Source: Chiloscyllium plagiosum (Eukaryota). From it: a DNA stretch of 51,588 bases. The position numbers and the translations under genes are program-made. Positions 7,255 through 51,588 of the stretch are shown here, one piece after another. The number at the start of each line of letters is the position of its first letter. Position 1 is the first letter of the stretch. The notes beneath the pieces were generated by a model that saw only the letters and a list, made by a program, of their open reading frames with translations, made no database searches and had not been told where the DNA came from. Location: NCBI RefSeq assembly GCF_004010195.1, contig NC_057752.1, forward strand, positions 12,288,253 to 12,339,840, in the 5' to 3' direction.

Positions 7255-7532
7255 GGGCGGCACGGTAGCACAGTGCCTAGCACTGCTGCCCCTCAGTGCC
7301 AGAGACCCGGGTTCAATTCCCGCCTCAGGTGACTACCCAGTGTCTGCGTGGGTTTCCTCCCACAATCCAAAGATGTGCAGGTTAGGTGAATTGGCCATGC
7401 TAAATTGCCCGTAGTGTTAGGTGAAGGGATAAATGTAGGAGAATGGGTCTGGGTGGGTTGCGCTTCAGTGGGTCGGTGTGGACTTGTTGGGCCAAAGGGC
7501 CTGTTTCCACACTAAGTAATCTAAAAAAAAAA
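7255..7532 (+). mobile_element. HE1-like tRNA-derived (V-domain) SINE inserted in L1 ORF2
   Basis: Head gggcggcacggtagcacagtg (A box) and B box gggttcaattcc (7309-7320). Central gtgggtttcctcc...gtgcaggttaggtgaattggccatgctaaattgcc. Tail gacttgttgggccaaagggcctgtttcc followed by an A-run. Confidence 0.9.
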
Positions 7533-10717: not shown

Positions 10718-10931
10718 AGAATCAGAATGCCTCCAGTGTGGAAACAGGCCATTGGCTGAACAAGTCCACACTGACCCTCCAAAGAGGATCCCATCCATAC
10801 CCATTCCCCAAAATTAGTCTATGTTTCCCCTGACTAATGCACCTAACCTACATATCCCTGAACACTATAGGCAATTTAGCATGGCCAATTCAGCTAACCT
10901 GCACATCTTTGGACTGTGGGAAGAAACCCAC
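10718..10931 (-). mobile_element. Partial HE1-like SINE inserted in an old PLE remnant (~10280-11020)
   Basis: gcaatttagcatggccaattcagctaacctgcacatctttggactgtggg is the reverse complement of the SINE core at ~7360-7410. Confidence 0.85.
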
Positions 10932-13820: not shown

Positions 13821-14004
13821 CTAAAATCTAAAAATGTTGACAGGATACCATCCTTAATTTCTGGAGCACTGACTTAGTTTCTTTGGGGTCCAGGCAACAT
13901 TTGTAATTTGACAATGCTCACTGAGAGAGAGAGAGTTATATCCTCATAGTATGGAGCCCAATATTGCTCCCAGCACTTTAACCAAGGGTCATCATGCCTT
14001 ATAC

Positions 14005-14132
14005 CTAATGGGCCGGATGCAGAGGACGGCAGGATCCCCATTGGGCGTTCCATAGACGGGTAGACCGTCCAGCCCCTGGGGCCCGCCCCGCCGATGCGTT
14101 AGGCGTCCTACGGCCGTGGGACACACACACGT
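14005..14132. other. Unclassified GC/CpG-rich segment
   Basis: 78/110 G+C over 14011-14120 and 13 CpGs over 14011-14131, in a CpG-depleted background. Lies between a minus-strand CR1 RT remnant (~13936-14004) and a plus-strand CR1 3' end. Confidence 0.8.
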
Positions 14133-14328
14133 GAGGGGAAGAGGTGGCAGCTGGTACAATTACAACATTTAAAAAGGCATCTGGACATGTATACGAGTAG
14201 GAAGGATTAGAGGGATATGGGCCAAGTGCTGGTAAAGTGGGATTTGAGAAATGTAGGATATATACTTGGCATGGAGGAGTTGGACGGAAAGGGGTGTTTC
14301 CTTGCTGCACATCTATGATGAACTCTAA
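14133..14328 (+). mobile_element. CR1/HER1-like LINE 3' end
   Basis: gctggtacaattacaacatttaaaaaggcatctgga...gagggatatgggccaagtgctgg...catctatga matches 35375-35455 and 36471-36590. Confidence 0.85.
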
Positions 14329-14919
14329 AATGGATCCTCTTGAAAGGTTGAACTAGTTCACTTTTCTACACCAAGCCCGAAAAACCATTTTTAAAAGGAA
14401 CATTTAGAAGCCCAAAGGATGGGTTGTAGTTACATGCAAACAACCTACAGTATTTCTTACTATATGGCTTAAAAGTATGTACAAACAGAAATATTTTAAA
14501 AAGATGTTTAACTTTGCTCCAAAAGAAAAAGCCAAAACTAAATCCAGTTCCCCTAGCTCAGTGGCAGAATGATGGGACCATTTATTTTTAGGTTTAAAGT
14601 TCTGCAGCCAGAATAGGGGGATGCATTTTAGTGAACATTGAGAGCTGGCACAAGTGATTCGGCTCTATACAAATCAATGTAATCCAGAGAATTAAATCAG
14701 ATTTCGTTCAAATGTTTGTAAGAGTTAAGTGATTGAGACTAAAGTGGTGCAATCACATTGCCTAATGGCAGCATACATTCCATATGATTGCTATGTGGAA
14801 TTAGGCTTCACACTCAGTTGGTAATTTTGTATAAATTGTAAATATACATCACTATTATAATGAACACCAGGTCATGATCTGACATTATGGGGTATAGTTG
14901 ATTAATTCACAAAATAAAA

Positions 14920-17960: not shown

Positions 17961-18268
17961 TTAGATTAGATTCCCTACAATGTGGAAACAGGCCCTTTGG
18001 CCCAACCAGTCCACACCAACCCTCTGAAGAGCAACCCACCGAGAACCATTCCCCTACATTTACTCCTGACTAATGCACCTAACTAGTCAGTTTAGCATGG
18101 CCAATTCACCAGACCTGCACATCTTTGGATTGTGGGAGGAAACTAGAGCACCCAGAGGAAACCCACACAGACAGAATGTGCAAACTCCACAGTTGTCAGG
18201 TGGGAATTGGACCTGGGCCCCTGGTGCTGAGAGGCAGCAATGCTAACCACTGAGCCACCATGCCACCC
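17961..18268 (-). mobile_element. HE1-like SINE, full length
   Basis: Minus head gggtggcatggtggctcagtggttagcattgctgcctctcagcaccagg, SINE core, and (AATCT)n tail seen as ttagattagatt. Confidence 0.92.
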
Positions 18269-24275: not shown

Positions 24276-24550
24276 TTAGATTCCTTAGTGTGGAAACAGG
24301 CCTGTCAGCCCAACCAGTCCACACCAACCCTCCAAAGAGTAACCCATTCAGACCCATTTCCCTGACTAACACCTAACACCATGGGCAATTTAGCATGGCC
24401 AATTCCCTAACCTGCACATCTTTGGACTGTGGGAAGAAACCTGACCACCCAGAGTAAACCTAGGCAGACACTGCAAACTCCACACAATCTCCCAATCACC
24501 AGAGGCTGGAATAGAACATGGAACCATGGTTCTGTGAGGCAGCAGTACTA
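24276..24550 (-). mobile_element. HE1-like SINE
   Basis: Reverse complement of the SINE core and tail (gtggaaacaggcc...gcaatttagcatggccaatt...gtgaggcagcagt). Confidence 0.9.
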
Positions 24551-27590: not shown

Positions 27591-29620
27591 GAGATATACA
27601 ACCTGGAAAGACTTTTGGTCCAACTTGTCCATGCTCACGAGATATGGTAACTAATCTGGTCCAATATCCCCTTCTATTCAAATACCCAGCAGATGCCTTT
27701 TAATGTAGTAATTGTACCAGCCTCCACTTCCCCTGGAAAGATCCTTTTAAAAAACTTTCCCCTCCCCCTAAACCATGCCCTATAGTTCTAGATTGCCCCA
27801 GCCCAGGAAAACAACATTTTTGGCCCTATCCATGCCCCTTGATTTTTATAAGCCTCAGCCTCCAACACTAGGGAAAACAGCCTCAGCCTATTCTGCTTCT
27901 CCCTATATCTCAAACTCTGGCAAGATCTTTGAACCCTTTCAAGGGTCAAAGCCTTCTGATTGCAGGGAGACCAGAATTGCATACAAAAAATGGCCTAACC
28001 AATGTTCTTCACAGCTGCACCATACCATCCCAATTCACTCAATCCTCTGACTGAAAGAAAAACTTACCAAGTACCTTACTATCTACCTGTGATTCTACAT
28101 CTGTGAACAAACCTACATTCCAAGGTCTCTGTTCAGCATGGGACTCCAGGACCTTACCATTAAAGGTGTACAAGTACTACTGGTTTGCTTTTCCAAAATG
28201 CAGCACCTTGTTTATCTAAAAATTCCATCTGCTGCTCTTCAGTCCATTGGCCCATCTGATCAAGATCCTATTCTTCACTGTCCACTACATCTCTAATGAG
28301 TTCTTTAAACTTTTATAGGAATATTTGTATAAGAAAAGTGGATCCAGCATGGATGCTGGTGGCACACCACTGGTCACAGGCCTCTAGTCTGAAAAGCAGA
28401 GCACCACCTGTCTACTTTAGACCTAGTTCTGTATCCAAATGGATAGTTCTCCCTGTATTCCATGGGAGATAATTTTGCTAACCCATCTGCAATGAGGAAG
28501 CTTGTTAAATGCCTTATTGAAGTCCACATCCACTGTCCTCAAGCCTCTTCATTAACTGGAGTTATTTTGAAGTAGAGACATTTCCTCATGCACAAAGCCA
28601 CCATTAGCTATCCCTAATCAGTCGATGAGAAAGTGAGGACTGCAGATGCTGGAGATCAGAGCTGAAATGGGTTGCTGGAAGAGCACAGGTCAGGCAGTAT
28701 CCAAGAAACAGGAGAATCGACATTTTGGGCATGAGCCCTTCAGAAATGAGGAAAGTATCCAGCAGGCTAAGATAAAATGTAGGGAGGAGGGACTTGGGGG
28801 AGGGGTGTGAAAGTGTGATAGGTGGAAGGAGGTCAAGGTGAGGGTGATAGGCTGAGAGGTCAGGAGGAAGATTGCAGGTTAGGAAGGTGGTGCTGAGTTA
28901 GAGGGATTTGACTGAGACAAGGTGGGGGGGGGGGGGAATGAGGAAACTGGAGAAATCTGAGTTCATCCCTTGTGGTTAGAGGGTTCCTAGGCAGAAGATG
29001 AGGCACTCTTCCTCCAGCTGTCACGTTGCTATGGTCTGGCGATGGAGGAGTCCAAGGACCTGGATGTCCTTGGTGGCCCCAAGTCCCTCCTCCCTACCTT
29101 TTATCGTAGCCTGCTGGACACTCATTCCTGAAGGGCTCATGCCCGAAATGTCGATTCTCCTGTTCCTTGGATGCTGCCTGACCTGCTGTTTTGCTGGAAA
29201 AGCACAGTCAGCTCTAATCAGTCTTTGCCTACTGAAATATGCAGATCTTTTCCTTTTTGATTCCCTATTTACTTCCCTGGCTTTTCTTTACCATTTTTCT
29301 TAAATAAATGGTACCCTCCAGTTAGCCAGCCTCTAGTCTTCGGGCACCTGAGGTGTGACTATCAATGAAACAAATTTAAAATCAAGGGGTTCAACAATCT
29401 CTTCCCTAGCTTCCTGGCGTTTAGGGTACACCTGATCATGTCCTGGGGATTTATCCATCTGTTTTAGGGCATCCACCACTAATTATGGTCATTTTTTCAA
29501 GATATTGCCCCATAGTGTCTTCCACATCCTTCTCCACAGTAAACACTGATGCAAAATACTCATTTAGTATCTCCAACTCATGGTTGTCCTTAGCATATTC
29601 ATAAACCCCTTCGTATTCTC
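27590..29620 (-). mobile_element. CR1-clade LINE RT and 3' remnant, interrupted by a PLE insertion
   Basis: MQFWSPCN (ORF 27788..27982), VTSGVP and DFNKAFNKLPH on minus. Continues after 29223. Confidence 0.8.
28624..29213 (-). mobile_element. 5'-truncated PLE with GIY-YIG C-terminus, 3' terminal repeat and inverted 5' repeat
   Basis: Minus 29071-28937 translates KDIQVLGLLHRQTIAT*QLEEECLIFCLGTL*PQGMNSDFSSFLI. ~29075-29190 is an inverted copy of ~28685-28800. 10-bp TSD ctaatcagtc at 28614-28623 and 29214-29223. Confidence 0.88.
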
Positions 29621-29699: not shown

Positions 29700-32114
29700 A
29701 TGAGGTGGAATTGAGGAACCACAGGCAAAAAACCATAGTGGGAGTTTTATGTACAAACCTCCTAACAGTGGTCAGGACCAGGGGTGCAACATGTACTGGG
29801 AAATAGAAAAGGCATGTCAGAAAGGCAGGGTCACAGTGATCATAGGAGACTTCAATATGCAGGTGGACTGGGTAAATAATGTTGCCAGTGGATCCAAAGA
29901 AAGGGAATTCATGGAATGCTTACAGGATTGCTTTTCGGAACAGCTTGTCATGGAGCCCACAAGGGAGCAGGCTATTCTGGACCTAGTGCTATGTAATGAA
30001 CCAGACTTTTATTAAAAAATCTTAAAGGGAACACTTAGGAAGAGCGATCATAATACGGTAGAGTTCAGTCTGCAGTTTGAAAGAAGGCAAAATCGGATGT
30101 AATGGTGTTACAGTTAAATAAAAGTTAATAAAATGAGGGCATGAGGGGAACTGACGAAAATAGACTGGAAGCAGAGCCTAGCAGGGAAGACAGCAAAAAT
30201 GGCAGGAGTTTGTGGGTAAAACGGAGGACACTGTACAGAGGTTCACCCCAAAGAGAAAGATTATCCAGGGAGGGCTTAGACAGCCATGGCTGAAAGGAAG
30301 TCAGGAAATCAAAGAAAAAAAGAGCCTATAAAGTGGCCAAGAGCACTGGGAAATCAGAAGATTGGGAAGGCTACAAAACAAAGGATAACAGAGAAATAAG
30401 GAAGGAGGGGATCAAATATGAAGGTAGGCTAGCCAGTAATATTAGAAAGGATCGTAAAAGTTTCTTTCAATACATAAGAAACAAACGACAGGCAAGAGTA
30501 GACATTGGGCCACTTCAAACTGATGCTGGAAGCCTAGTGATGGGAGATGAGGAAATAGCTGGAGAAATTAATAAGTACTTTGCATCAGTCTTCACAGTGG
30601 AAGACATGAGTAATATCCCAACAATTAAAGGGAGTCAGGGGGCTGAGTTGAGTATGGTTGCCATTACAAAAGAGTGCTAGAAAAGCTAAAAAGTCTTAAA
30701 ATTGATAAATCTCCTGGCCCCAATGGGCTACATCCTGGAGTTCTGAGGGAGGTGGCTAAGGAAAGAGGCACTGGTTGAGATCTTTCAAAAGTCACTGGAG
30801 TCAGGGAAAGTCCCAGATGATTGGAAGATCACTGTTGTAACCCCCTTGTTCAAGGATCAAGGCAAAAGATGGAAAATTATAGGCCAATTAGCCTAACCTC
30901 AGTTGTTGGTAAAATTCTGGAATCCATCATTAAGGATGAGGTTTCTAAATTCTTGGAAGAGCAGGGTCGGATTAGAACAAGTCAANNNNNNNNNNNNNNN
31001 NNNNNNNNNNNNNNNNNAGGTGAGCTACTGGTATGGATTGAGGATTGGCTGTCTGACAGGAGGCAGAGAGTTGGATAAAAGGTTTTTTTTTGGAATGGCA
31101 GCTGGTGACAAGCGGTGTCCTGCAGGGTTCAGTGTTGGGGCCACAGCTGTTCATGTTATATATTAATGATCTGGATGAAGGGACTGGGGGCATTCTAGCA
31201 AAGTTTGCTGATACAAAGTTAGGTGGACAGGCTAGTACTGAGGAAGTGGGGAGGCTGCAGAAGGATCTAGACAGTTTGGAAGAGTGGTCCAGGAAGTGGC
31301 TGATGGCAGTCAATCTGAGCAAATGAGAGGTCTTGCACTTTGGAAAAAAGATTAGAAGCATGGATTACTTTCTAAACCGTGAGAAAATTCATAAAGCCAA
31401 AGTAGAGGGATCTGGGAGTGCTAGTTGAGGATTCTCTAAAGGTAAACATGGACTCAACCTGCATGTTTAAGAAAGCGAATGCAATGTTGTCATTTATCTC
31501 AAGGGGGTTGGAATATAAAAGCACTGTTGTGCTACTAAGACTTTATAAAGCTCTGGTTAGGCCCCATTTGGAGTACTGCGTCCAGTTTTGGTCCCCACAC
31601 CTCAGGAAGGACATACTGGCACTGGAGCGTGTCCAGCAGAGATTCATATGGATGATCCCTGAATGGTAGGTCTAACATACAAGGAACGGCTGAGGATCCT
31701 GGGATTGTATTCATTGGAGTTAAGATTAAGGGGAGATCTAATAGAAATTTAGAAGATAATACATGGCTTGGAGAGGGTGGATGCTGGGAAATGGTTTCCG
31801 TTAGGCGAGGAGACTAGGACCCACGGACAGCCTTAGAATTGGGGGGGGTAAATTCAGAACAGAAATGCGGAGACATTTCTTCAGCCAGAGAGTGGTGGGC
31901 CTGTGGAATTCATTGCCACAGAGTGCAGTGGAGGCTGGGACGCTAAATGTCTTCAAGGCAGAAATTGATAAATTCTTGATGTCACAAGGAATTAAGGGCT
32001 ACAGGGAGAATGCAGGTAAGTGGAGTTGAAATGCCTATCAGCCATGATTGAATGGCTGAGTGGACTAGATGGGCCGAATGGCCTTACTTCCACTCCTATG
32101 TCTTATGGTCTTAT
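29700..32114 (+). mobile_element. Best-preserved CR1/HER1-like LINE ORF2 pseudogene (EN + RT), 5'-truncated
   Basis: YKPPNS..VIIGDFN..AILDLVLCN, KYFASVFTVED, NYRPISLTSVVGKILE, SGVLQGSVLGPQLF..INDL..KFADTK, LYKALVRPHLEYCVQFWSPHLRKD. Ends in a tcttatggtcttat tail. Frameshifted, with an N gap at 30986-31017. Confidence 0.95.
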
Positions 32115-32189
32115 AGGACTAGTTCAGTTTGGTATTATGGTCAGCAGAGACTGGTTGCACCCAAGGGTCTGTTTCACACTGCATGATTG

Positions 32190-33685
32190 TATATGACTCA
32201 AAGTAGAGTGCTAGAAATTCTGGGAAGCATAAAGATAGACAAGTCCCCAGGGCCAGACTGTATATATCAAAAGTTACTATGGGAGGGGAGGAATGAGATT
32301 GCTGTGCCTTTGGTGATGATCTTTACATCCTCATTCTCCATGGTAGTACCAGATAGCTGGAGGGAGGAGAATATTGCTCCTGTTCAGGAAAGGGAAGTCA
32401 GAATTACAGACCAGTTGGTTTTAAGTCTATGGTAAGCAAGCTACTGGAAAGGATTTGGACTAGTTAGAAAAACCAGTTTGATTAAAGATCAGCAGCATGT
32501 CTGAGGGCAGCAGGTCATGTCTAAAGGCTAGAGTTTGAGGAGATGATGAGACAGGTTGACAGTTAGTGGATGTGGTGTATATGGATTTCAGTAAGGCATT
32601 TGATAAGGCTCCCCAAAGCAAGCTCATCCAGAAGCTTAGGTGGTATGGGATACAGGGAAATCTGGCTGTCTGATAGAGCTGGCTAGCCAAAAGTGTGGTA
32701 GTGGATGGAAAGTAACATATTCTGCCTGGAGGTCAGTGACCAGTGGCATCCTGCAGGGATCTGTTCTTAGACCTCTGCTCTTTGTAGTTTTTAAAATAAG
32801 TGACTTGGGAGAAGGGTGGGTTAGTAAGTTTGCCAATGACATGAAGGTCAGTGGTGCTGTAGGTAGTGTTGAGGGCTGTTGCAGGCTACAACATGACATT
32901 GACAGGATGCAGAGCTGGGCTGAGAAGTGGCAGATTAAGTTCAACCCTGATAAATGCAAAGAAGTGATTCATTTTGAAAGGTCAAATTTGAATGTTGAAT
33001 ACAGGGTTGAAGACAGGATTCTTGGCAGTGTGGAGGAACAGTGGGATCTTGGGATCCCTCAAAGTTGCCACCCAAGTTGAATGGTGTTTTGGCTTTCACT
33101 AAATGGGGGATGGAGTTTAAGGACTGCAACAAAACCTCATGGCTCTAAAACCCTGGTTGGGCTGTGCTTGGAATAATGTGTCCAAGTCTGGTCACCTCAT
33201 TATAGGAAGGACAGATGCTAGAGGGCACAGAGGATATTTACCAGCATGCTACCTGGATAGGAGAGGCATGTCTTTTGAAGGTTGAATGAGCTGGGGTTTC
33301 TCCCATACTGAAGAAAAAAAGGGTTGACTTGATAGAAGTGTACAAAGTAATAAGAGGCATAGAGTAGATAGCCATTTGTTTCCCTGGGGAGAAGTCTCTG
33401 GCTGTCACAAAGTGACAATTGTAAAGGTGGTGTGCNNNNNNNNNNNNNNNNNNNNNNNNNNNNNNNNNNNNNNNNNNNNNNNNNGGAAGTCAGATGCATA
33501 AAGATGTTCTTTATGCAGAGTGGTGAGTGTGGAATGCACTGCCAGCAGTGCTAGTAAAGTCAGACATTAAGCAACTGTTGGACTAGAACATGGATGGCAG
33601 TAAGCTGAGGGGTGTGTAGGTAAGGTTGATCAAGATTAGTGCTCAGCACAACATGGGCTGAAGGGCCTGTATTGTTCTATGTTGA
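32190..33685 (+). mobile_element. CR1-clade LINE RT remnant
   Basis: IDKSPGPD, VYMDFSKAFDKAP, SGILQGSVL, KFANDMK, WAEKWQIKFNPDKC. N gap at 33436-33484. Confidence 0.9.
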
Positions 33686-35455: not shown

Positions 35456-36450
35456 TGGAAATGTGTTGCTGGAAAAGCGCAGCAGGTCAGGCAGCATCCA
35501 GGGAACAGGAGAATTGATGTTTTGGGCATAAGCCCTTCAGGAATGGGGAAGTTTGTCCAGCAGGCTAAGATAAAAGGTAGGGAGGAGGGACTTGGGAGAG
35601 GGGTGTCGGAAATGTGATAGGTGGAAAGAGGTCAAGGTGAGGGTGATAGGTCAGACTGGGGTGGGGTTGGAGAGGTCAGGAAGATGATTTCAGGTTAGGA
35701 AGGCTGTGCTGAATTTGATGGATTTGACTGNNNNNNNNNNNNNNNNNNNNNNNNNNNNNNNNNNNNNNNNNNNNNNNNNNNNNNNNNNNNNNNNNNNNNN
35801 NNNNNNNNNNNNNNNNNNNNNNNNNNNNNNNNNNNNNNNNNNNNNNNNNNNNNNNNNNNNNNNNNNNNNNNNNNNNNNNNNNNNNNNNNNNNNNNNNNNN
35901 NNNNNNNNNNNNNNNNNNNNNNNNNNNNNNNNNNNNNNNNNNNNNNNNNNNNNNNNNNNNNNNNNNNNNNNNNNNNNNNNNNNNNNNNNNNNNNNNNNNN
36001 NNNNNNNNNNNNNNNNNNNNNNNNNNNNNNNNNNNNNNNNNNNNNNNNNNNNNNNNNNNNNNNNNNNNNNNNNNNNNNNNNNNNNNNNNNNNNNNNNNNN
36101 NNNNNNNNNNNNNNNNNNNNNNNNNNNNNNNNNNNNNNNNNNNNNNNNNNNNNNNNNNNNNNNNNNNNNNNNNNNNNNNNNNNNNNNNNNNNNNNNNNNN
36201 NNNNNNNNNNNNNNNNNNNNNNNNNNNNNNNNNNNNNNNNNNNNNNNNNNNNNNNNNNNNNNNNNNNNNNNNNNNNNNNNNNNNNNNNNNNNTTTTGGTA
36301 CTGGTCCTCCTGGGAGCAGATGCGGCGGAGTCGAAGGAATTGGGAGAATGGGATGGCGTTTTTACAGGGGGCAGGATGGGAGGTGTAGTCCAGGTAGCTG
36401 TGGGAGTCGGTCGGTTTGTAGTAGATGTCCGTGTTGATTCGGTCGCCTGA
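35456..36450 (-). mobile_element. 5'-truncated PLE (RT C-terminus to 3' terminal repeat), mostly under an N gap (35731-36292), inserted in a CR1 3' end
   Basis: GDRINTDIYYKPTDSHSYLDYTSHPAPCKNAIPFSQFLRLRRICS is a PLE-type RT C-terminal motif with CpGs retained. Terminal repeat at 35456-35545. 17-bp TSD tttggagggatatgggc at 35439-35455 and 36471-36487. Confidence 0.92.
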
Positions 36451-37833: not shown

Positions 37834-38134
37834 GGGCAGCATGGTGGCAGTGGTTAGCACTGCTGCCTCACAGCACCAGTGACCTGGGTTCAATTCCCAC
37901 CTCAGGCAACTGTGTTGAGTTTGCACACATTGTGTCTGGGTGGGTTTCCTCCAGGTGCTCTGGTTTCCTCCCAGTCCAAAAATGTGTAGTTAGGAGAACT
38001 GGCCGTGTTAATTTGCCTATAGTGTTAGGTGAAAAGACAAGTGTAGGGAAAGGTCTGGGTGGGTTGCTCTTGAGGGTCAGTGTGAACTTGTTGGGCAGAA
38101 GCACCTGTTTCCACATTAAGTGATCTGATCTAAT
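37834..38134 (+). mobile_element. HE1-like SINE, full length
   Basis: gggcagcatggtggcagtggttagcactgctgcctcacagcaccagtgacctgggttcaattcc head, core, and gatct-repeat tail. Confidence 0.92.
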
Positions 38135-39079
38135 GTGGCCAGGAATGCTGGGGCAAGAAATCGGATGGCACACTGAAGACTAGTGCTCATGGTACATAAA
38201 ACATGTTTCAGCTTTGCTATATGGGTGACTATGTATAATGTTGCTCTTGGAGGGATCTCAAAGCCCCTCCCTCAAAGCACTGACCCCACTTATTCCATTT
38301 TCACCTACATTGTGAAAACAAGTGCTCAATGGAGGGTAACAGGGGAAAAAGTCTCAGGCTCAGCCTTTATCTGACAAGTGCCCCAAATTTGTCAAGCAAC
38401 CCTGAACAGTGACTGACATTTGTGCAGATCCCAGACAGTCATCTTACAGATTGGTTGGACTGGACCCACAGGGCTAACAATGATTACTCCCTGGACTGCA
38501 GAGGTAGGACTCCTGGATGAGCTGCCAAAACCAACTCACCCCTAGAAGGATACCAGAGGCTATTCTGGATTTACTATGCTGAGAATCATTCCACCCCCTC
38601 CACTGAGAGGAGTACGGCTTTAGACATGGCCAGTTAAGAGTGTTTGCACCACATCCACAATTGGCATATAGGGCAGGTACAAAAGTGACTGAACTGCATT
38701 CAAATTAAAACACCCTCCTGAAGGACTGCTGACAAACAGCCAAGCTTGTGCTTTCCTATGCAAGTTCAACATGTGCACAAGTATGGTGAACCTTTATAAC
38801 ATGGCAGGGTAGGAGGTAGACAAGGTACCAAAATGCAAGATAAGGATTCCATGAGCATCTAGGTAGTATGGAGTGATCAACCAAACAGATGAGGTGCAGC
38901 CTGGTTCAGTTGAGAGAGAGTCTGCCCTTACATGTAAAGGGCCCTTGCAGTAGCATTCCAAGGAGAGATACAGTGTAATATAGAAGTTCACCATTAAAGT
39001 GCATAGTGTTATTATAAATGAATCAGATGTTATCATTGACAGGTCAGATACCAGAATTTCTGGAGATGGAGGTGCGCAA

Positions 39080-39230
39080 CTGCTCTGGTTTCTTCCCACA
39101 ATCCAAAAAGTGCAGGTTAGGTGAATTAGCAAAGGGGTAAATGTAGGGTAATGAGTCTGGGTGGGTTGCACTTTGGCAGGTTGGTGTGGACTTGTTGGGC
39201 CAAAGGGTCTGTTTCCACACTAATCTAAAA
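39080..39230 (+). mobile_element. Partial HE1-like SINE (3' half)
   Basis: gtgcaggttaggtgaatt...gacttgttgggccaaagggtctgtttccacactaatct. Confidence 0.85.
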
Positions 39231-39559: not shown

Positions 39560-41270
39560 ATAATGAGGGTTAATATTGGTTTATTATTGTAGATCCAACC
39601 AAGGATTAGCCATTTGCAAGTCTGGGAACATTAGTTTAATTGAGTCACAGCACAGAAATGGATGAGTGTCAAGTAAATTCTCATTTGAATTTAGCACTGA
39701 AAGAAACTTAGTCATAAAAACTGTGCTAAAACTGAAGTGTAATAATTAGGGCAGAGTTGGTTTGGAGCAGATGGGGGAATATGTAGCAGAAAGAGCAACT
39801 GAGGAACAATGGCAGATATTTAAGAGTCCTAGATGCTCAAGAGATGTGGCCCAGTCAGGAAGACTAACTGATAAAGGATAGCACCAGATTGAAAGTAGTA
39901 ATATTCAATGTGGCAGATTAGCTGCAAATCAGGATTGGGGAAGTTTTAAAAGCCAAAGAAATTATCCAAAAGCAAAGGAATACAAAAAAAACTGGGGGCA
40001 AGCTGGCTTGCCTCTTCTATAAGAGGATAAAGCTGAAGTGAACACAGAAAAAGGTTGGGGAAATGGTGAAGAACTAGAAACAGCACAGGAATTGAAAAGG
40101 AGGTATACAAGGAGCAATCTTCTAGGAATCCTTCATTCAGGCAAGTTAGGGGATTAGAAACTTAATGTAACATCTTTATTCATGAAGGAGGCAGACAAGA
40201 TAGATACTATGGCCAGTTAGCTTAACATCCACCATTGGATGATTTTCCTGGTCTACATTATAAATTGAGGATTTTAAAGAGTGCACAATAAAACAGAATC
40301 AGCATGGCTTAATGCAAAGTCATGTGACAAAATTTGTTACAGTTCAGATACTGAGCAGGACAGATTATTAGTAATGCTTGTTTAAAAGTCCCACCATCGA
40401 CTAGGAGCCCATGGTGTTGCTTCTTTGTGAAGTAAGATGTAATAGATAGAGGACAGTGAACATGGGTGCCATTTTCAGAATGGCAACCTGTAATAATGGA
40501 GTATGTGAGAAGTGAATGTGCTATCACCAAATTTGTGGATGACAAAAGTAGTGAGGATGCCAGCAGAAACTTGGAGATGCCATATGTAAAAAAAATTGGT
40601 TTGGCAGAAGTAGAAGAGCTGAGTACCATGTGTGGGAAAAGACTACAGAAAGTTGTAGCAGAGTGTTTTTGGGTTCTCAAACATGAATCAAAACCCATAA
40701 CATCCAGGTTTAGGAGGTATGGAGAAGGCAAAATGGAATGTTGGTCTTTATTTCAAAAGGGTAAAGTAGGAAAAGTATTTTAAACAAAAAAATTATACCA
40801 CTGAATACTGAACAGTTTTGGTCCCCTTATCCAAGGGGAGGCATACTGGTACTGTATCATTCCAAAGGCTTACTACATCAATATCATAGTAATGCCCGAA
40901 ACGTCGATTCTCCTGTTCCCTAGATGCTGCCTGACCTGCTGCGCTTTTCCAGCAACACATTTCCATCTCTGATCTCCAGCATCTGCAGACCTCACTTTTC
41001 CCTACATCAATATCATAGGTGAATGATCTGACAAGTATGTTGGGCCTAAACTCATTGAAGATTAGAGATAGATTAGTGGATTGACAAGAGGCTGTATCCC
41101 CTCATGGGATAAGTCTAGGGCCACAGGGCATAATTTGAGTATGCAGTCACCATTTAGGACATGACAAATTTTGTAAGGTAATTAATCTCAAATTCCTTTA
41201 CTAGAAGTGGCTGGGTGATTAAGATTCAGGGATGAGGCACAGATTTTAAGTTAAAGGGAATCAAGGGCAA
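39560..41270 (+). mobile_element. Highly decayed CR1-clade LINE
   Basis: YWPVSLTS, QHGL..SCD-like, SEWQPV, KFVDDK and QFWSPY remnants. Confidence 0.7.
40890..41001 (+). mobile_element. Young solo PLE terminal repeat, truncated within hammerhead stem II
   Basis: Starts taatgcccgaaacgtcgattctcc with CpGs intact. Perfect 17-bp TSD ctacatcaatatcatag at 40873-40889 and 41002-41018. Confidence 0.92.
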
Positions 41271-42556: not shown

Positions 42557-43869
42557 CATTCAGTTCCATACCTTCAAGTAACCTGGCCTCTGCACCAAGG
42601 GCAGTCAACAGCAGCCAAAGGGAGTTTTTTTTAAACTAGGCAGCCACTAGCCTTATCTTTCTACTGATCCAAAGAATACACAAGTAGTCAAAAAAAAGTG
42701 TATAGATAAAGCAAGCAGCTATGAACTGCAAAAGTAGAGTATCCATCAGATAGTCTGGTCAGTTACTATGCTGCTAGAAGCAAGCCAAGTCTCAGACCAC
42801 TGAAGTAACAAAACAGCAAGATGGAAAGGACTAGCTGTTGAGGGACCAAACGTCAGGAAGGTATGCTCCATGTACAATAGGCCTAACTCATCTATCAAGT
42901 GTAAAAATGTTTGTGTAGTTCAAACAATCTGATTGAATTTTATTAGAGTTACCCTCCCTGCCAGAATACTATTATCTCAAAATCAGCTTCAGCAATGAAG
43001 TTCGTCTCACCTTGACAATGTTGAAAGCTTTAGTAATAGCAGACTTGTTCCAAAATATGTACACAAAGCAACAATTGGATCTGGATACAAACTAGGTTGC
43101 AAAGAAATTCCATACCAAGGCTAGGTTTAGCAAAAGCAGTGTTCTGCCAGAGGTGAAAACAAGATAGATAACACAAGGAATGTATTGGTGTGGGATGTTC
43201 AGGCATCCAAGTGGGTGGAATGAAGTTTTGAAACTGACAAGCCATCAGAAGAATCAAGGACATAAGTGGGACTAGAAAAACTAATTAAACCTGATAAACA
43301 GTGCTGTTACCTAGCCTGGACTTCTACCTTGCAGAGGGTCATTACCAGCTCTGACATCTCTCCTGGCCACAATCCCAAACTTTCTACAAGGACTAACCTC
43401 ACCTGGAATTTGCTTCCTCTATAACCAAAAAAGACATATGTAGCCCTATTAATTCACTCCCAAGTGTAGTCCACTTGTCACAACCAGTAATACTGAAGGC
43501 TCTAAGTCACATGCCATTCTTAGTTGCAATTCCATGTTCTATTAGAAGAAAACATGCCTTAGTATCTCAACTTGCAGGTCCTTCTTTATACCTGCCACAG
43601 AAGGAGTCCTCAACAACCTGACCAAGATACCAAGTCAAGTGCATCCAGCCCTGGCCTTTTGGACTTTGGAGTCAGTTGAATGCTTAAAAACTATTTAAGG
43701 TAAAAGGGATATGGAACAAAAAAGTAGACGTACACAGTTCAACCACAACATAACTAAGGTGGTAGAACAGGTTCAACAGGATGAACAACCTACTCACTAT
43801 TCTATGCACATTGAAGGAGCAGAATCACACTGAAGAGCCAGCCTCAGATGCCATCATCTCCAGTTAGAG

Positions 43870-44949: not shown

Positions 44950-47700
44950 AGAGTCAGACCTACAGCACAGACAGGCCCTTTGGCTCCAACCCCAAAAGGT
45001 TAGGGCCATTTCCTTCTAAACCTTTCCTATTGACAATCTGACTGACTCAATATTGTTAATGCACCTGCCTCAACCACTTCCACAACAGCTCATTCCATAT
45101 GCTGACCACCCTGTGAAAACATTGTCCCTCAGGTTCCCTTTATTCTTTAACCTTAAACTGATGCCCTCTAGTCCTCAATTCACCAACCCTGGGAAAAGTC
45201 AGTGTATTCACCCTATCTATGCCTCATGATCTTATATGAACCTAGAGTCCTAGCAACATTGTTAATTTCTTCTGCACACTTTCCAGTTTAAGAACATTCT
45301 TCCTATAAGGTGACCAAAACTGAACACAATACTCCAAGTGCAACCTCAATGTCTGTACAACTGCAAATAAACACTTTCCAACTTCTATACTCAATGCCCT
45401 GACCAATTGAAGCCCAGTGTGCCAAAAGCTTCAATGCCCAGTCTACCTGTGATGCCACTGTCAGATAACATGCACCTGGAACTCCAAGGTTCCTCTGTTC
45501 CACCACACTCAAGGCCCTACCATTCACTATGACAATGTGCCACATGAGGCTGCTGCATAAGATAAGGATGCATGGCATTAGGGGTAGAGTATTAGCATGG
45601 ATAGAGGATTAGTTGACTGTCAGGAAGCAAAGAGTGGGGATAAGCAAGTGCTGTTCTGGCTGGCAATCAGTGACTAGTGGTGTGCCTCAAGGATCAGTGT
45701 GGAGACCACAAATATTTACAATTTATATAAATGATTGAGTTGGGACCACATGTACAGTACCAAAGTTTGCCAGCAACATGAGCAGCAGAGCAAAGTGTGC
45801 AGAGGACCATAGATACAGAGTGGGCAACTGTATGGCAGATAGAATACAGTGTTAGTAAATGTGAAGTCATACATTTTGTATGGAGTAACAGCAAAACAGA
45901 TTACTTAAATGGTAAAAAGTTGCAGCATGCAGATTTGTAGAGGGACCTGGGGTGTCCTTGTGTGTGAATCACAGAAGGTCAGTCTGCAGGTATAACAGGT
46001 AATTAGGGAGGCAAATGGAATTCCATCCATCATTGCTAAAGAGGCTGCGTTTAAAAGCAGAGGGGTAATGTTACAGCCATACAAGGTGCTGGTGAGATAG
46101 CACCTGGAGGAATGTGTGCAGATTTGGTCTCCTTAAGAGTAAATGGCAGGGATGCAAAAGAGACTCACTAGGTTGATTCTGGCTTAGGAGGAGAGACTGA
46201 GCAGATTGGGATTATATTTATTGGAAGTAGGAATGGGGGGGAAAAAAAAAGATAAAATAGATAGGATGTTTCCATTGTAGGTGAAACTCTGACAAGAGGG
46301 CATGGCCTCAAGATTAGAGGAAGCAGGTTCAGAACTGAATGGAGAAGGAAGTTCTTCACCCAGAGGGTTGTTAATCTAAGGAATTCCTTGCCCAGGGAAG
46401 GGTGGACACTACATCAGTAATTGCTTTTAAAGCAAAAAGCTAAATCCTTTACTTTTTTGAAGTAAAGGAAGGGATATGGTGAAAACGTGGGTAAATGGAG
46501 TGGAGCCATGATCTTAGTGGCTGAGCAGGCTTGAAGGGCTAGATTGCGTACTCCTGATTCTGTGTTCTTATGAAACTCCTACATTGATTTGACTTTCCAA
46601 AAATCAAGTCCTCACTCATCTGTATTAAACTATTTGCCATTTCTCAACCCACATCCCTAGCTGACCAAGGTCCTGCTGCAATTTCTAATAGCCTTCCTCA
46701 CTGTCCACAATGCTCCCTATTTTAGGGTCATCTGCAAAATTTGCCTTGTGTTATCTATATCAATAATTTGTATGAGAAAGAATAATAGAGTCAGAGTCAG
46801 TTATACAGCATGGAAACAGACCCTTCAGTCCAACTGGTCTATGCTGACCAGATATTTAATCTAGTCCCATTTGCCAGCACTTAGCCCATATCCTTCAACC
46901 CTTCTATTCAGAAACCCATCCAGATGTCTAAGGCATTTAGTTGTACTAGGCTCCACAGCTTTGTCAGGCAGCTCATTCCATACATGCACCACCCTCTGAA
47001 AAACATTGCCCCTTAGGTCCCTTTTATATATTCTATATTCTTTCCTTCATCTTAAAACCATGCCTTCTCATTCTGGACTCCCAAACTCAGAAGCCACATC
47101 TGTTTACCCTATCCATGCCCCTTTATTTTGAGCCCCTAAAGATCAACCCTCAGCCTCTGACAAAAAACAGCCAGCACTGACCAGAGGTACAGCACTAGTC
47201 ACAGGCCTCCTGTCTGAAGGCACTTTCCACCATTACCCTCAGCTTCCTACTATCAAGCCAATTGTGTCCAATTTGCCAGATCCTGCAATTCCATACAACC
47301 CAACCTTCCAAAGCAACCTACATATGGAACCTTAAAGCTTTACTGAAAAATCAATGTACAGTAGACTAAATCTACTGCCCTGCCCACAACCTTTTGTTGG
47401 TTTCTAGACCAAAAGGAACCAAAACTAAGTCATTCTAAACAAATGACCAAAGCTAAAATTTAATATTACATTCCATGACACAGCAATCCTGTTGCTATGA
47501 AGTCTGCATCTTATGATTCTGCTCCACAACCACAAGTGATCCCAAATAAGCCTGTTGGATGAGAACCTGGTATTGGTTATTTTTAAACTCAACCTTCCTG
47601 GTCACTTCAAAAGTAGTTTCACAAATTTTAGGGGCATGATCTCACAGCCATACTGACTAATCAAACCTGGTCTTTCCAAAAAAAAAAATGTACATCTTAT
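44950..47700. mobile_element. Nested CR1-clade fragments (minus ~44950-45530, plus ~45535-46572, minus ~46575-47700)
   Basis: PHMRLLHKI, VTSGVPQGSV, YKVLVR..LEECVQIWSP on plus. LEYCVQFWSPY on minus. CR1 3' tails at ~46570 and ~46790. Confidence 0.8.
47394..47589 (+). mobile_element. Short insertion, probably the terminal repeat of a second PLE family with its hammerhead core deleted
   Basis: 7-bp direct repeat caacctt (47387-47393, 47590-47596). ctgctccacaaccac|..ccaaataagcctgttgga resembles a shark PLE repeat as I recall it. Confidence 0.45.
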
Positions 47701-48417
47701 TCCTCAAATCTTGAGGTATCCCATTTCCTCCAAATGGAGGAATCAATGGCAGCCCTGGATGGAGCCCACCACAATATTTTTTACTTTTAACAGAGTTTGT
47801 TTTTGCTGCGACAGGAGACAAACAGACTGACCCAAAATGGGTGGCATTAGAATTGTCACCTCCACTCCCAAAATGTGGGAAACAAAGTGATTAGTGTTAA
47901 GTTGCTCTTCAGCTCTTTCTCCAAATGAAGTTTAGCACAAGAAACAAATTGTGCATGATACATTAAAATGATGCCTACAAAACTTGAATGTCATGGTGAT
48001 CATCAAGTTTGCAGACAAAAATTGTCATGGTGGTAATTCAAGAGATAGCCTTAGATTAGAGGATTAAACAGGCTAGATAAAAACTGTAGACACTAAAATC
48101 AAACAAAAACAGAAGTTGCTGGAGAGACTCAGCAGGTCTGGCAGCATCTGTGAAGAGAAATCAAAGTTAAATGTTTCACATCCAGTGATCCATCCTTAGC
48201 TGATAGGAGCTAGGAAAGTGTTGGTTTAGATGCACAAGATAGGATGAAGGAGGGAGAAAAGAGAAGAGAAAAATGTCAAAGAGGGTGTTGCTGGAAAAAC
48301 AGGCCAGGCAGCATACAAGTATGAGAATTGACATTTTGGGCACAAGTCCTTCATCAGGAAGGTGGAAGAGGGGGTGATAGGTCAGGGGGAGGGTGGAGCA
48401 GATTGGGTGGGAAGATT

Positions 48418-48513
48418 AGAGATGGAAATGTGTTGCTGGAAAAGTGCAGCAGGTCAGGCAGCATCTAGGGAACAGGAGAATCGACGTTTCGGGCATTAGC
48501 CCTTCTTCAGGAA
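48418..48513 (-). mobile_element. Young solo PLE terminal repeat nested in an older copy
   Basis: 10-bp TSD tgggaagatt at 48408-48417 and 48514-48523. CpGs intact. Confidence 0.88.
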
Positions 48514-48514
48514 T
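48479..48514 (-). ncRNA. Minimal type I hammerhead ribozyme motif (PLE-type), intact core
   Basis: Minus RNA AUUC-CUGAAGA-A-GGGC-UAAU-GCCC-GAAAC-GUC/GAUU. Predicted cleavage between 48483 and 48482. Confidence 0.8.
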
Positions 48515-48966
48515 GGGAAGATTGACAAGTCAAGAGGATGGTGCCAAGTTGGAGGGTTAGATTGCAGGAGGGGGGCGGGGTGGAAGAATAAGAGATTGAG
48601 AAACTAGAAGTCTGCTGATTGGAAACTAGTGAACTCAATGTCCCCTCTACCCCACCTCATCCAATTCTCCAACTTGGAAAAAAGTCAAGAGGGTGGTGCC
48701 ATCTACCAGTTAACCCCCATCTATCACCTTCTCCCATTCCCAGTGAAGGGTAGAGGTCTAATGTAGACAAACATGGGTACTGCAGATGCTGGAGATCAGA
48801 GTCAAGATTAGAGTGGTGCTGGAAAAGCATAGCAGGTCTGGCAGCATCTGAGGAGCAAGACTTGGCTGTTCCTCAGATGCTGCCTGACCTGCTTTGCCCA
48901 AAGTGTATTCTGGATTAGTGGTGCTGGAAGAGTACAGCAGTTCAGGCAGCATCCAGGGAGCTTCGA

Positions 48967-49002
48967 AATCGACGTTTCGGGCAAAAGCCCTTCATCAGGA
49001 AT
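48967..49002 (-). ncRNA. Minimal type I hammerhead ribozyme motif (PLE-type), intact core
   Basis: Minus RNA AUUC-CUGAUGA-A-GGGC-UUUU-GCCC-GAAAC-GUC/GAUU. Predicted cleavage between 48971 and 48970. Confidence 0.82.
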
Positions 49003-49725
49003 AAAGGCAGTGAGCCTGAAGCGTGGAGAGATGTAGACTACTCCACTGATGCTGTCTGACCTACTGCACTTTTCCAGCACTACCCACTTGGACTCCATCT
49101 GCAGTCCTCACTTTTTCCAGGTGAGGTGGGGGTGAGAAGTAATTAGTAGGTATACAGCCTAGAGAGAAAAGAACAGTTGGACAGAAACAAGTTGATAATC
49201 TGACTGGAAAGGTGAATAGCTATTAATGGAGATTGTTAGTGGCTAACAATAGGTCGTGTTTAATGATAGACTGAGATAACAAGGCCTGGTGTGTGATGGG
49301 GGTCGAGGCCATGAGAGAGAGTTCAGGCCATAACATTAGGAAACTTTAAGTATAGAGGGCTGCAGGCAGATAATGTGTTTTTGTTTGATATAACTAGGCT
49401 GACCAGCAGAAGACAAAATTCACTCAAGCAATTTAATTATACTAGGCTCCACAACTTCCTCCAGTAGAATTCACCAAGGGTGAGGCACTTGGTAGTGGAA
49501 TTAGTGAACAGTAGGACCCTAGGCAACAGCAAGGATCAGAGGGACCATGTCTATGCCTACTAGCCTCCAAGGTAGAAGGGGTAGATAGTGATTAAGTTGG
49601 CACTTGTTAGCTGAAGCCTAGAGTTTAGACTAGAGGGGCTATGCTGGAACTGTAAAAAATATTGGTTAGGCCACAGCTTGTATTGTGTGGAGTTAGAGAT
49701 TATATTGCATTGGAGGGGGCATGGA

Positions 49726-49931
49726 GGAGAAAGTGAGGACTGCAGATGCTGGAGATCAGAGCTGAATGCATTGCTGGAAAAGCATAGCAGGTCAGGCAAC
49801 ATCCAAGGAGCAGGAGAATCGACATTTCAGGCACAAGCCCTTCTTCAGGAAAGGCTCATGCCCGAAACATCAATTCTCCTGCTCCTTAGATGCTGCCTGG
49901 CCTGCTGCGCTTTCCCAGCAACACATTTTCA
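49726..49931. mobile_element. Inverted pair of PLE terminal repeats inserted in a CR1 remnant (~49400-50340)
   Basis: Minus copy 49726-49850 and plus copy 49851-49931. Possible 7-bp TSD gcatgga (49719-49725, 49932-49938). Confidence 0.85.
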
Positions 49932-50449
49932 GCATGGAAGACATTACCCAGGATGTTGCCAGGGCTAGAATGTTTTAGTTATTGAGAGAAATTGGATAGA
50001 CTGGAGTTATTTGCATTATAGTTACAGATTAAGAGGCATGAGAATGATGACTTACATGCATAACATAAGGGGCACAGATAGGGTAGACAGGAACTGCTCC
50101 TTGGCAGTTGGAGAACACTAGTTGAGACAGTAGGTTGAGACAGAACTTTTCACCTTGTAGTGGCAATTTGAAACTCCTACCTGCAAAGGGTAGGAGAGAC
50201 AAGCCCTCAACACTAAAGCATTGAGATGTACATTCACAACAGGCCAAGTGTCAGGGAGAGAGATCAGACTAGTTAGGGAATTGCTATTGACTAGCAGACT
50301 CGATGGGACAAGAGGCCTTATTCTATGCAGTAGACCTCTGACAAATCAAAACATGCAAACTGCTGATTTCAAGAAGGATCCAATCCACAAAAACCTTCAA
50401 ATGTGATAACCTTTCAAACATTTTTACTTCTAAAGAGTGAAACAGTTAC

Positions 50450-50600
50450 CTGAAACCATTGTTGTATAGCAAGTAAGCTGCAAGTACTAAAGATGGACTG
50501 ATCTCTGAAGGGTTAGTTTAGATTTAAACAGACTGCTCTATCATGCTCTTGACATAGTCAGGGCGGTTAAGATTTTAACAACTCCGTTGCTCAAACACTC
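50450..50600 (-). ncRNA. Candidate exon 2 of the minus-strand transcript
   Basis: Branch-point-like CCTAAC about 20-25 nt upstream of acceptor catttcaatttag|GAG (50601/50600). Donor CAG|GTAACT (50450/50449). Stops in all frames. Confidence 0.4.
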
Positions 50601-50739
50601 CTAAATTGAAATGTTTCCTAACGTTAGGGGTGCTGACAAGGTCTTCATTTGTTGACATTTGGCTCCGAGACAAATCCAAACTAAACTGACATTTTAGGTG
50701 GGCAGGTAAGAATTTAGAAAAATAAAAAAAATAAAAAAT

Positions 50740-51588
50740 TGGATTGTCAAAACGTGACAAATATGAAGCAAAAGTAAATATTCAAAACGAGTATAAGAAC
50801 TTTGAGTTCACTTCACGGGCACGAAATGGATCTCACCCAACAGTTAACTTTGTGGCACTTCTCAAACTCCAAAACGAGTACTCATTCCTCACCCACTAGA
50901 CACCCACTTTGGTACTCCACCCCCACAAGATGGTCCTGGGGCATTAACCCTATCACTACCGCGGGCAGGCCTCGTCCATATGACCTTGCTCTCTTGGCGC
51001 ACCCGTTGCTAAAACAATCAGTGCTCTCGTTGCTCCGATCACCGTCACTGTCCGCTCATCACCACCTCGCTTACACAGCTCAGCCTATCATGAAAAGGAG
51101 CCATGATTCCGAATCCACTTACCACCTAAACAGGTAGCACCGTCTCCCTTCAGAAACCCGCTGTCCAACCCTTACCCCCCGAAGAAACATTCACTCAAAG
51201 TCGCTCCCACTCGATCGCTTTTCACTGACTGGACTTCGGCGCTGAACCCACCCACTTCACATACCATTGGTCAATCCTGTTGAGAAACGTTCAATACGAA
51301 CAAGGTATATTAGGACTCTCGTCAGCCATTAGGCAATAATTCTGTCAATCAGAAAGGCGAGCGGCGGTAGGCTACATGATCTCGTGGAAAGGGGTGTGTT
51401 CGTGCGTCACGAGGAAGGAGCAGCCAGAAAAAGTAAACAGTTCAAATTGGAGACTTTCCAGCCTTAAAGGTTTCGTTACACTAAATATTTACATCGTTTA
51501 ATTGAAGCTTTCTTTCACAAATGTACATAGAAGGAGGGGGCTCGTGAATGAGGGGAAGACGGATTGGAGAAGGAGAAGACTGAGGAAT
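50740..51588. promoter_or_regulatory. CpG-rich, repeat-free promoter-like region, possibly bidirectional
   Basis: Sharp rise in CpG relative to the rest of the window. ATTGG/CCAAT at 51266-51270, CCAAT-like variants at ~51325 and ~51345, CRE-like TGCGTCAC at 51403-51410. Confidence 0.65.
51176..51260 (-). ncRNA. Candidate first exon of the minus-strand transcript (TSS approximate)
   Basis: Donor GG|GTAAGG at 51176/51175 within the CpG-rich region, just downstream (on minus) of a CCAAT box. Confidence 0.35.

What the first reader, a model, noticed from the sequence alone, without database searches (positions are those of the whole stretch)
48479..49002. Two intact minimal hammerhead ribozyme motifs in Penelope-like terminal repeats
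Seen: both minus-strand copies contain the full core CUGANGA / stem II GGGC:GCCC / GAAA...GUC, with an extra A between A9 and G10.1. Stem III is reduced to the palindrome ACGU and stem I is short. Across copies in this window the stem II loop varies (UAAU, UUUU, AUGU, UCAU, UUAU, UUGU) while the GGGC:GCCC stem is mostly kept. Established: PLEs carry minimal hammerheads proposed to cleave as dimers through a palindromic stem III. Inference: these two same-strand copies ~490 nt apart could form a dimeric ribozyme in one transcript. They are also sense to, and intronic in, the candidate minus-strand transcript.
Basis: partly seen in the sequence, partly recalled or inferred. Interest (0 to 1): 0.7.

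Follow-up and report, generated by a model that had tools for sequence, protein, structure and literature searches.

The report
Two Penelope stubs carrying minimal hammerheads
The two tiny hammerhead-ribozyme motifs are really there, but they sit in two likely separately inserted stubs of very common Penelope-type jumping genes, a kind of motif described in 2014, and they are predicted not to fold together, so they are likely inert passengers rather than a working pair.

Summary
Observation confirmed. Both minus-strand motifs (C3 at 48998 and 48510, 488 nt apart) carry the full minimal type-I hammerhead core, a 4-bp stem II and the ACGU palindrome; shuffles give 0.04 such motifs per window. 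They match the published consensus for Penelope-like element (PLE) min-HHRs. The same repeat directly follows a PLE endonuclease end at 28.9-29.1 kb, in a genome whose PLE proteins match bamboo sharks best. The dimer idea is not supported. The copies belong to different subfamilies (83% alike) and flank no ORF. B has its own 10-nt target duplication inside an older PLE end. The active dimer fold is predicted to lie 18-27 kcal/mol above the ensemble. They look intact because they kept three CpGs that other copies mostly lost (30 of 78 CpG positions changed). The host transcript is unproven: there is a CpG island and a donor site, but no exon and no reads between the copies. The scan has noted this motif class many times elsewhere in this genome. 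Side note: 5 of 11 core-bearing copies lack three core bases, hinting that core-dead templates still transposed.

The parts
48967..49002 (-). Copy A minimal type-I hammerhead motif (C3 48998; predicted cut 48971/48970)
48479..48514 (-). Copy B minimal type-I hammerhead motif (C3 48510; predicted cut 48483/48482)
48909..49032 (-). Stub A: 34 nt of pLTR, hammerhead and tail; family contigs diverge from the window at 49032
   Evidence: loose ends at 49032; the 3' limit is read by eye
48418..48513 (-). Stub B: starts 3-4 nt before C3 and spans the predicted cut; 97.6% identical over 84 nt to the plus-strand copy at 40890-40973
48514..48523 (.). 10-nt target-site duplication of B (element-upstream copy)
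   Evidence: chance of >=10 nt in random 31x31 zones 0.33%
48408..48417 (.). 10-nt target-site duplication of B (element-downstream copy)
48284..48407 (-). Older PLE end into which B likely inserted; decayed hammerhead at C3=48357 (G12 lost, stem II mismatch)
48770..48900 (.). Fold-back pair of tail pieces between A and B (forms a long hairpin; source of the spurious Rfam miRNA hits); an 8-nt repeat at 48761 and 49031 may bound it together with A
   Evidence: chance of >=8 nt 2.4%
49042..49120 (+). Inverted, degenerate tail copy predicted to pair with A's tail and enclose A's motif in a hairpin loop
49753..49938 (.). Fold-back stub with a third, near-intact minus-strand core (C3=49848; C11.1 and C15.2 changed to U)
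28630..29219 (-). 5'-truncated PLE: inverted pLTR, GIY-YIG C-terminal end (29068-28925), pLTR, hammerhead lacking 3 core bases, tail; links the repeat to a PLE ORF without a gap
36295..36450 (-). PLE RT C-terminal fragment (84% to a Chiloscyllium punctatum protein); an N gap separates it from the pLTR plus hammerhead at 35730-35448
50501..51500 (.). CpG island with a minus-strand GTAAGT donor at 51122-51117: the only basis for a host transcript

Best explanation
The two motifs are intact minimal hammerhead cores in two short end-stubs of Penelope-like retroelements that likely inserted separately, were likely copied from uncut element RNA, and are predicted not to fold into an active dimer, so they likely do not cut RNA at this locus. 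Shown: the cores, their family, the link of the family to a PLE ORF end, B's target duplication, the different subfamilies, and CpG-biased loss in other copies. Inferred: in full-length elements the motif sits in the pseudo-LTR and works weakly, as a dimer through the 4-bp ACGU helix and probably with help from the element's own protein. The reverse transcriptase copied about 100-125 nt of such RNA into DNA, straight across the scissile bond. B landed inside an older PLE end, in a 1.9-kb stretch that holds 9 of the window's 20 strongest repeat hits. A and B look intact because they are young and still have their three CpGs, not because the pair is selected.
For: A and B are 83.5% alike over 85 nt, while B is 97.6% alike to the plus-strand copy 7.4 kb away. 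No PLE ORF lies between them: tblastn with 120 PLE homologs hits only 28.9-29.1 kb and 36.3-36.4 kb. B has a 10-nt TSD, and its downstream flank is another pLTR plus decayed hammerhead. In the 13 other copies, 30 of 78 CpG positions differ, against 5 of 139 non-CpG positions in the 3' core and stem II and 14 of 227 in the tail (core/stem vs tail Fisher p=0.34). Active-dimer constraints cost +17.6, +24.0 and +26.9 kcal/mol in three transcript contexts; A's core is predicted to pair UGAUG with CGUCG and B's core with its own flank. Literature: monomers show no activity and dimers or trimers low activity (PMC4209133); the Anolis HHR needs protein and its cleavage is dispensable for insertion in vitro (PMC11167929); PLEs tend to insert into or next to PLEs (PMC6765202).
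Against: Of 55 pairs among the 11 core-bearing copies, only 2 are same-strand and within 500 nt (3.6%), and A-B is one of them (post hoc). The B-core/A-site junction pairs 7 of 10 stem I positions, better than either homodimer. The folding model has no Mg2+, tertiary contacts or protein. It also penalises isolated dimers by 10.8-15.6 kcal/mol, and no active ribozyme was run as a positive control, so it cannot exclude assisted folding. All 4 descriptor hits are on the minus strand, although 8 of the 11 core-bearing copies are too. Earlier scan notes report U6 fusions at the predicted cut elsewhere in this genome (not tested here), which would mean the family does cut in vivo.
Confidence: 0.85

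Rival explanations
1. A and B fold into an intramolecular heterodimer in a host pre-mRNA, perhaps with PLE protein or a chaperone, and cut the first intron, affecting the transcript.
For: Nested, pseudoknot-free dimer topology with a 4-bp ACGU helix; 7 of 10 stem I pairs in one junction; proximity in 2 of 55 pairs; CpG island and donor site 2.1-2.6 kb upstream on the same strand.
Against: +17.6 to +26.9 kcal/mol for the full dimer and +9.1 to +21.2 for half-dimers. The GAAG that pairs with B's flank is the common form in laid contigs (about 78% of X4 depth at 48962-48963) and pairs in cis with A's own upstream GCUUC, so it is not a local adaptation. Likely independent insertions. No host exon among 243 minus-strand frames of >=45 aa.
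Confidence: 0.05
2. Each stub can be cut only in trans, by pairing with RNA of an active PLE bound to PLE protein (mainly in the germ line), giving rare incidental cuts without function.
For: The palindromic ACGU allows any two family members to pair; family RNA reads are abundant on both strands; protein-assisted cleavage is shown for Anolis PAc; U6-fusion notes (untested).
Against: No place where many molecules begin or end in run X6 (a polyA single-cell library is a poor test). Both cores are predicted to be sequestered.
Confidence: 0.08
3. A and B are the two terminal repeats of one small non-autonomous element (retrozyme-like, about 490-nt unit).
For: Same strand, and 488 nt is within the 51-972 bp range of animal retrozyme units.
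Against: 83% identity and different tails. The spacer is a mosaic of other pieces and has almost no contig depth, so it is not a repeated unit. B has its own TSD; the best repeat across an A..B unit is 7 nt.
Confidence: 0.02

Closest known systems
Minimal type-I hammerheads (min-HHR) in pLTRs of metazoan PLEs (Cervera & De la Pena 2014, PMC4209133; read parts 1-2 of 4 of the main text and part 2 of 3 of supplement 2; supplement 1 not searchable)
   Same: Fits the printed consensus CUGANGAH, G10.1-C11.1, GAAA, palindromic 15.2-16.2, NUH; mostly dispersed single motifs; 2-bp helix I and 4-bp helix II each have precedents in their table.
   Different: No shark term was found in the searched supplement. 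These two have both helix I and helix II at the short end.
PAc Poseidon element of Anolis (PMC11167929; passages and second half of the main text read)
   Same: HHR at the pLTR end followed by a tail; copies retain the uncut scissile bond, as expected if unprocessed RNA is the template.
   Different: Homologs of the RT fragment here carry a CX2-5CxxC linker, the Neptune/Nematis feature (PMC8557442). Whether the ORF starts inside the motif was not determined.
Non-LTR retrozymes of animals (bioRxiv 10.64898/2026.07.22.740005; part 1 of 5 and passages read)
   Same: PLE-related type-I HHRs; found in the one chondrichthyan sampled and often in introns in Xenopus.
   Different: Retrozymes are head-to-tail arrays of one unit; A and B are unlike, dispersed stubs.
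Small PLE hammerheads that cleave as dimers (Lunse, Weinberg & Breaker, RNA Biol 14:1499; not held; seen only as a title and summary in review PMC6765202)
   Same: Palindromic, very short stem III and type-I topology.
   Different: Cannot compare constructs or rates; the paper was not read.

Membership tests
PLE min-HHR | Conserved core CUGANGA...GAAA...UH | tested here: met
PLE min-HHR | Unpaired nucleotide between A9 and 10.1; G10.1-C11.1 pair | tested here: met
   consensus
PLE min-HHR | Palindromic 15-16 positions, no stable helix III | tested here: met
   ACGU in both
PLE min-HHR | Type-I topology with a short helix I | tested here: met
   2 bp + mismatch + 1 bp; 2-bp precedents
PLE min-HHR | Located in a PLE pseudo-LTR | tested here: met
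   Homologous repeat follows a GIY-YIG end without a gap at 29068-28654; B is 84-89% alike to those ends. For A's subfamily the link is by homology only.
PLE min-HHR | Self-cleavage as a dimer | not testable with these tools
   Predicted unfavourable; no read ends at the bond in a library unsuited to show them
PLE min-HHR | Stem II kept while loop II varies across copies | tested here: met
   4 of 87 non-CpG stem vs 15 of 51 loop differences. Within the two motifs only loop positions 48496/48497 appear among the 40 variant rows shown (10 hidden, >=88% filter). No compensatory change was seen.
Full or tandem PLE (pLTR-ORF-pLTR) at this locus | RT/GIY-YIG ORF between two near-identical repeats | tested here: not met
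Non-LTR retrozyme | Tandem units each with an HHR | tested here: not met
Neptune/Nematis clade | CX2-5CxxC linker between RT and EN | tested here: inconclusive
   Motif in the linker region of 5 of 6 homologs examined; the window's own linker is not sequenced and no tree was built
Rfam hammerhead families | Covariance-model match | tested here: not met
   (no hit at E<=1)

The most novel reading that the evidence does not exclude
Two independently inserted Penelope stubs from different subfamilies have by chance assembled a protein-assisted heterodimeric hammerhead that cuts the first intron of a shark host transcript, so the genome's mass of such stubs would form an overlooked layer of conditional pre-mRNA cleavage sites.
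Probability: 0.05. Interest if true: 0.65.

Novelty: new member of a known kind. Interest (0 to 1): 0.13.

Why it matters
As it stands it matters little: it is one more example of a motif known since 2014 to be widespread in animal PLE ends, here in a shark-type genome where it is extremely abundant. The function of PLE hammerheads is still called unclear (PMC8557442). Two things here bear on that. Both stubs span the scissile bond, so their templates were uncut or religated. And a core-deleted form occurs in both ends of one insertion and in other copies, which would be genomic support for the in vitro result that cleavage is not needed for insertion. If a chance heterodimer did cut a host intron, dispersed stubs would become regulatory elements.

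Tried and rejected
Rfam scan: no hammerhead; two miRNA-family hits below gathering score on the fold-back at 48825-48900, rejected. No own genome was held, so no genome-wide counts could be made. Exact-pattern scans of metagenome and viral contigs: 0 matches each. Sequencing-run search: no RNA holder listed. Run X7 laid 0 reads. X6 (about 2% of the run read) lay almost only on repeat bins on both strands, with no locus splice joints and depth 0 in the six bins 48589-48762; this is a weak test of expression. The loose-end pile at 49002 (83, 393 and 233 contigs) might mark 5' ends at stem I, but its first letters match the other subfamily's upstream sequence, so it is inconclusive. Pfam on 243 minus-strand frames of >=45 aa gave one hit (zf-AN1, E 0.008, 45908-46132), rejected on inspection; shorter exons would be missed. 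Protein Atlas was uninformative (best score 0.86). Pfam missed the RT fragment. The bacterial promoter scan does not apply. Counts for the 5' half of the core were dropped because deleted and truncated copies misaligned there. Findings look-ups by nearby place and by sequence returned nothing. Paper searches for shark or cartilaginous-fish PLE hammerheads found no dedicated study; the library is incomplete. The energy test has no positive control from a published active ribozyme.

Full report
Observation. The minus strand holds two complete minimal hammerhead cores with C3 at 48998 (A) and 48510 (B), 488 nt apart. Each reads CUGANGA, an extra A, GGGC-NNNN-GCCC, GAA, ACGU, C, with predicted cuts at 48971/48970 and 48483/48482. 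Stem I is two pairs, a U.U mismatch and one more pair. A relaxed descriptor finds 4 motifs in the window (9120, 48510, 48998, 49848), 2 with the palindrome; 300 dinucleotide shuffles averaged 0.043 and none gave two. Rfam has no matching model.

What the repeat is. A profile search gave 27 hits at E<=1 on both strands, 20 of them strong, 9 of those between 48.1 and 49.95 kb. In contigs of DNA-like runs the summed depth on the motif is about four (X1) to six (X4) orders of magnitude above neighbouring unique sequence; the tool warns this is no copy number, so I take it only as very high abundance. An RT fragment at 36450-36295 matches 272 of 274 candidate proteins, best 84% to a Chiloscyllium punctatum protein, and two of three homologs scanned carry a GIY-YIG domain besides an RT match. 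tblastn with 120 homologs finds a GIY-YIG C-terminal end at 29068-28925. It runs without a gap into a pyrimidine-rich pLTR, the hammerhead repeat and a tail, with an inverted copy at its 5' side, the textbook PLE layout (PMC8557442, passages and section 15). The RT fragment is separated from the pLTR at 35730-35448 by an N gap, so that link is not shown. B is 84-89% alike to these ends. A is linked by homology only.

The two copies are likely separate insertions. A and B are 83.5% alike over 85 nt, whereas B is 97.6% alike to a plus-strand copy at 40890-40973. B is bounded by a 10-nt direct repeat (48408 and 48514; chance 0.33%), starts 3-4 nt before C3, and is followed by an older PLE end whose own hammerhead at 48357 is decayed. 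A starts at 49032, where family contigs diverge from the window. An 8-nt repeat (chance 2.4%) may bound A together with the fold-back at 48770-48900. No ORF lies between A and B, and the spacer is not a repeated unit. A review states that PLEs tend to insert into or next to existing copies (PMC6765202, passages), which accounts for the clustering.

Why these two are intact. The motif contains three CpGs (C11.1-G12, C15.2-G16.2, C17-G1.1). In the 13 other copies aligned, 30 of 78 CpG positions differ, nearly all by transitions. Only 5 of 139 non-CpG positions of the 3' core and stem II and 14 of 227 tail positions differ (p=0.34 between the last two), against 15 of 51 in loop II. Counts for the 5' core were dropped because of misalignment. 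A, B and B's sister at 40891 keep all three CpGs. Youth explains this without selection at the locus (inference). Loop variation with a fixed stem likely reflects selection on master elements. In laid reads and contigs the only variants listed inside the motifs are loop positions 48496 and 48497 (40 rows shown, 10 hidden, >=88% filter). No compensatory change was seen.

The dimer hypothesis. The A-B dimer is nested and so possible. For it: only 2 of 55 pairs of core-bearing copies are same-strand within 500 nt, and the B-core/A-site junction pairs 7 of 10 stem I positions. Unconstrained, stem II forms (0.60-0.99), but A's core pairs with its own cleavage strand and B's with its flank. Isolated dimers are also penalised by 10.8-15.6 kcal/mol and the model lacks ions, tertiary contacts and protein, so this lowers the idea but does not kill it. 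In print, a Schistosoma min-HHR is silent as a monomer and weak as a dimer or trimer (PMC4209133). The Anolis motif cuts only with the element's protein, and cleavage is not needed for insertion in vitro (PMC11167929).

Host transcript. There is a CpG island at 50.5-51.5 kb (o/e 0.61-0.97 against 0.10 overall) and a minus-strand GTAAGT at 51122. Pfam found no credible exon in 243 minus-strand frames of >=45 aa. A polyA single-cell run gave 2655 reads on 48270-49130, 97% running on into other loci, none in 48589-48762, and no pile of ends. That library and depth cannot show absence. 'Intronic and sense' is therefore plausible but unverified.

Mechanism, committed. Shown: sequence anatomy, family, TSD, CpG pattern. 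Inferred: PLE reverse transcriptase copied short stretches of uncut element RNA across the scissile bond and inserted them independently in a PLE-rich patch; the stubs now decay neutrally and likely do not cleave (0.85). Rivals: an assisted heterodimer in a host intron (0.05), rare trans cleavage with active-element RNA (0.08), one retrozyme-like unit (0.02).

Earlier notes. The scan has many notes on this motif class elsewhere in this genome, with counts of 127,000-240,000 cores, start-anchored stubs and U6 fusions at the predicted cut. I could not check these genome-wide. B's start fits the start-anchored reading, and the window's density (2 intact cores in 51.6 kb) implies by simple arithmetic that about 1 in 100 intact cores would have a same-strand intact neighbour within 500 nt downstream even without clustering.

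Novelty. A new member of a known kind. Searches for a shark-specific description found none, a 2026 preprint includes one chondrichthyan, and the dimer-cleavage paper and one supplement could not be read. The most useful by-product is the 3-nt core deletion in 5 of 11 core-bearing copies, including both ends of the 28.6-29.2 kb insertion, which suggests it was present in the template.

Noticed in passing
window 28738-, 29133+, 35535-, 42482+, 39448- (first base of stem II): 5 of 11 core-bearing copies lack 3 bases of the CUGANGA-A stretch (four read CUGAA-GGGC, one CUGAU-GGGC). Both ends of the 28.6-29.2 kb insertion share it, so it likely predates insertion: a core-dead subfamily may have transposed. 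Three of these share loop UCAU.
   Followed up: partly
window 49753-49938 and 2022-2177: Head-to-head fold-back stubs with a near-intact core on one arm at 49848; similar fold-backs at 48770-48900.
   Followed up: partly
window 50501-51500: CpG island with CCAAT-like boxes and a minus-strand GTAAGT donor at 51122; likely a promoter, gene not identified.
   Followed up: partly
window 36295-36450: CpG-rich, open PLE RT fragment next to a 562-nt N gap, while the pLTR beyond the gap has lost all three motif CpGs; the two may not be one element.
   Followed up: partly
window 29700-33100 (+): LINE fragments with endonuclease (PF14529) and weak RT (PF00078) hits.
   Followed up: no
window 7340-7522, 10736-10931, 17981-18143, 24276-24440, 37932-38126, 39076-39230: A second dispersed repeat family on both strands, SINE-like by appearance; identity not tested.
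   Followed up: no
window 14001-14500: Local CpG enrichment (o/e 0.62) with no assignment.
   Followed up: no
window 43191-43203: Run X1 differs from the window and from X2 at 9 listed positions in 13 bases, a block polymorphism or small replacement.
   Followed up: no
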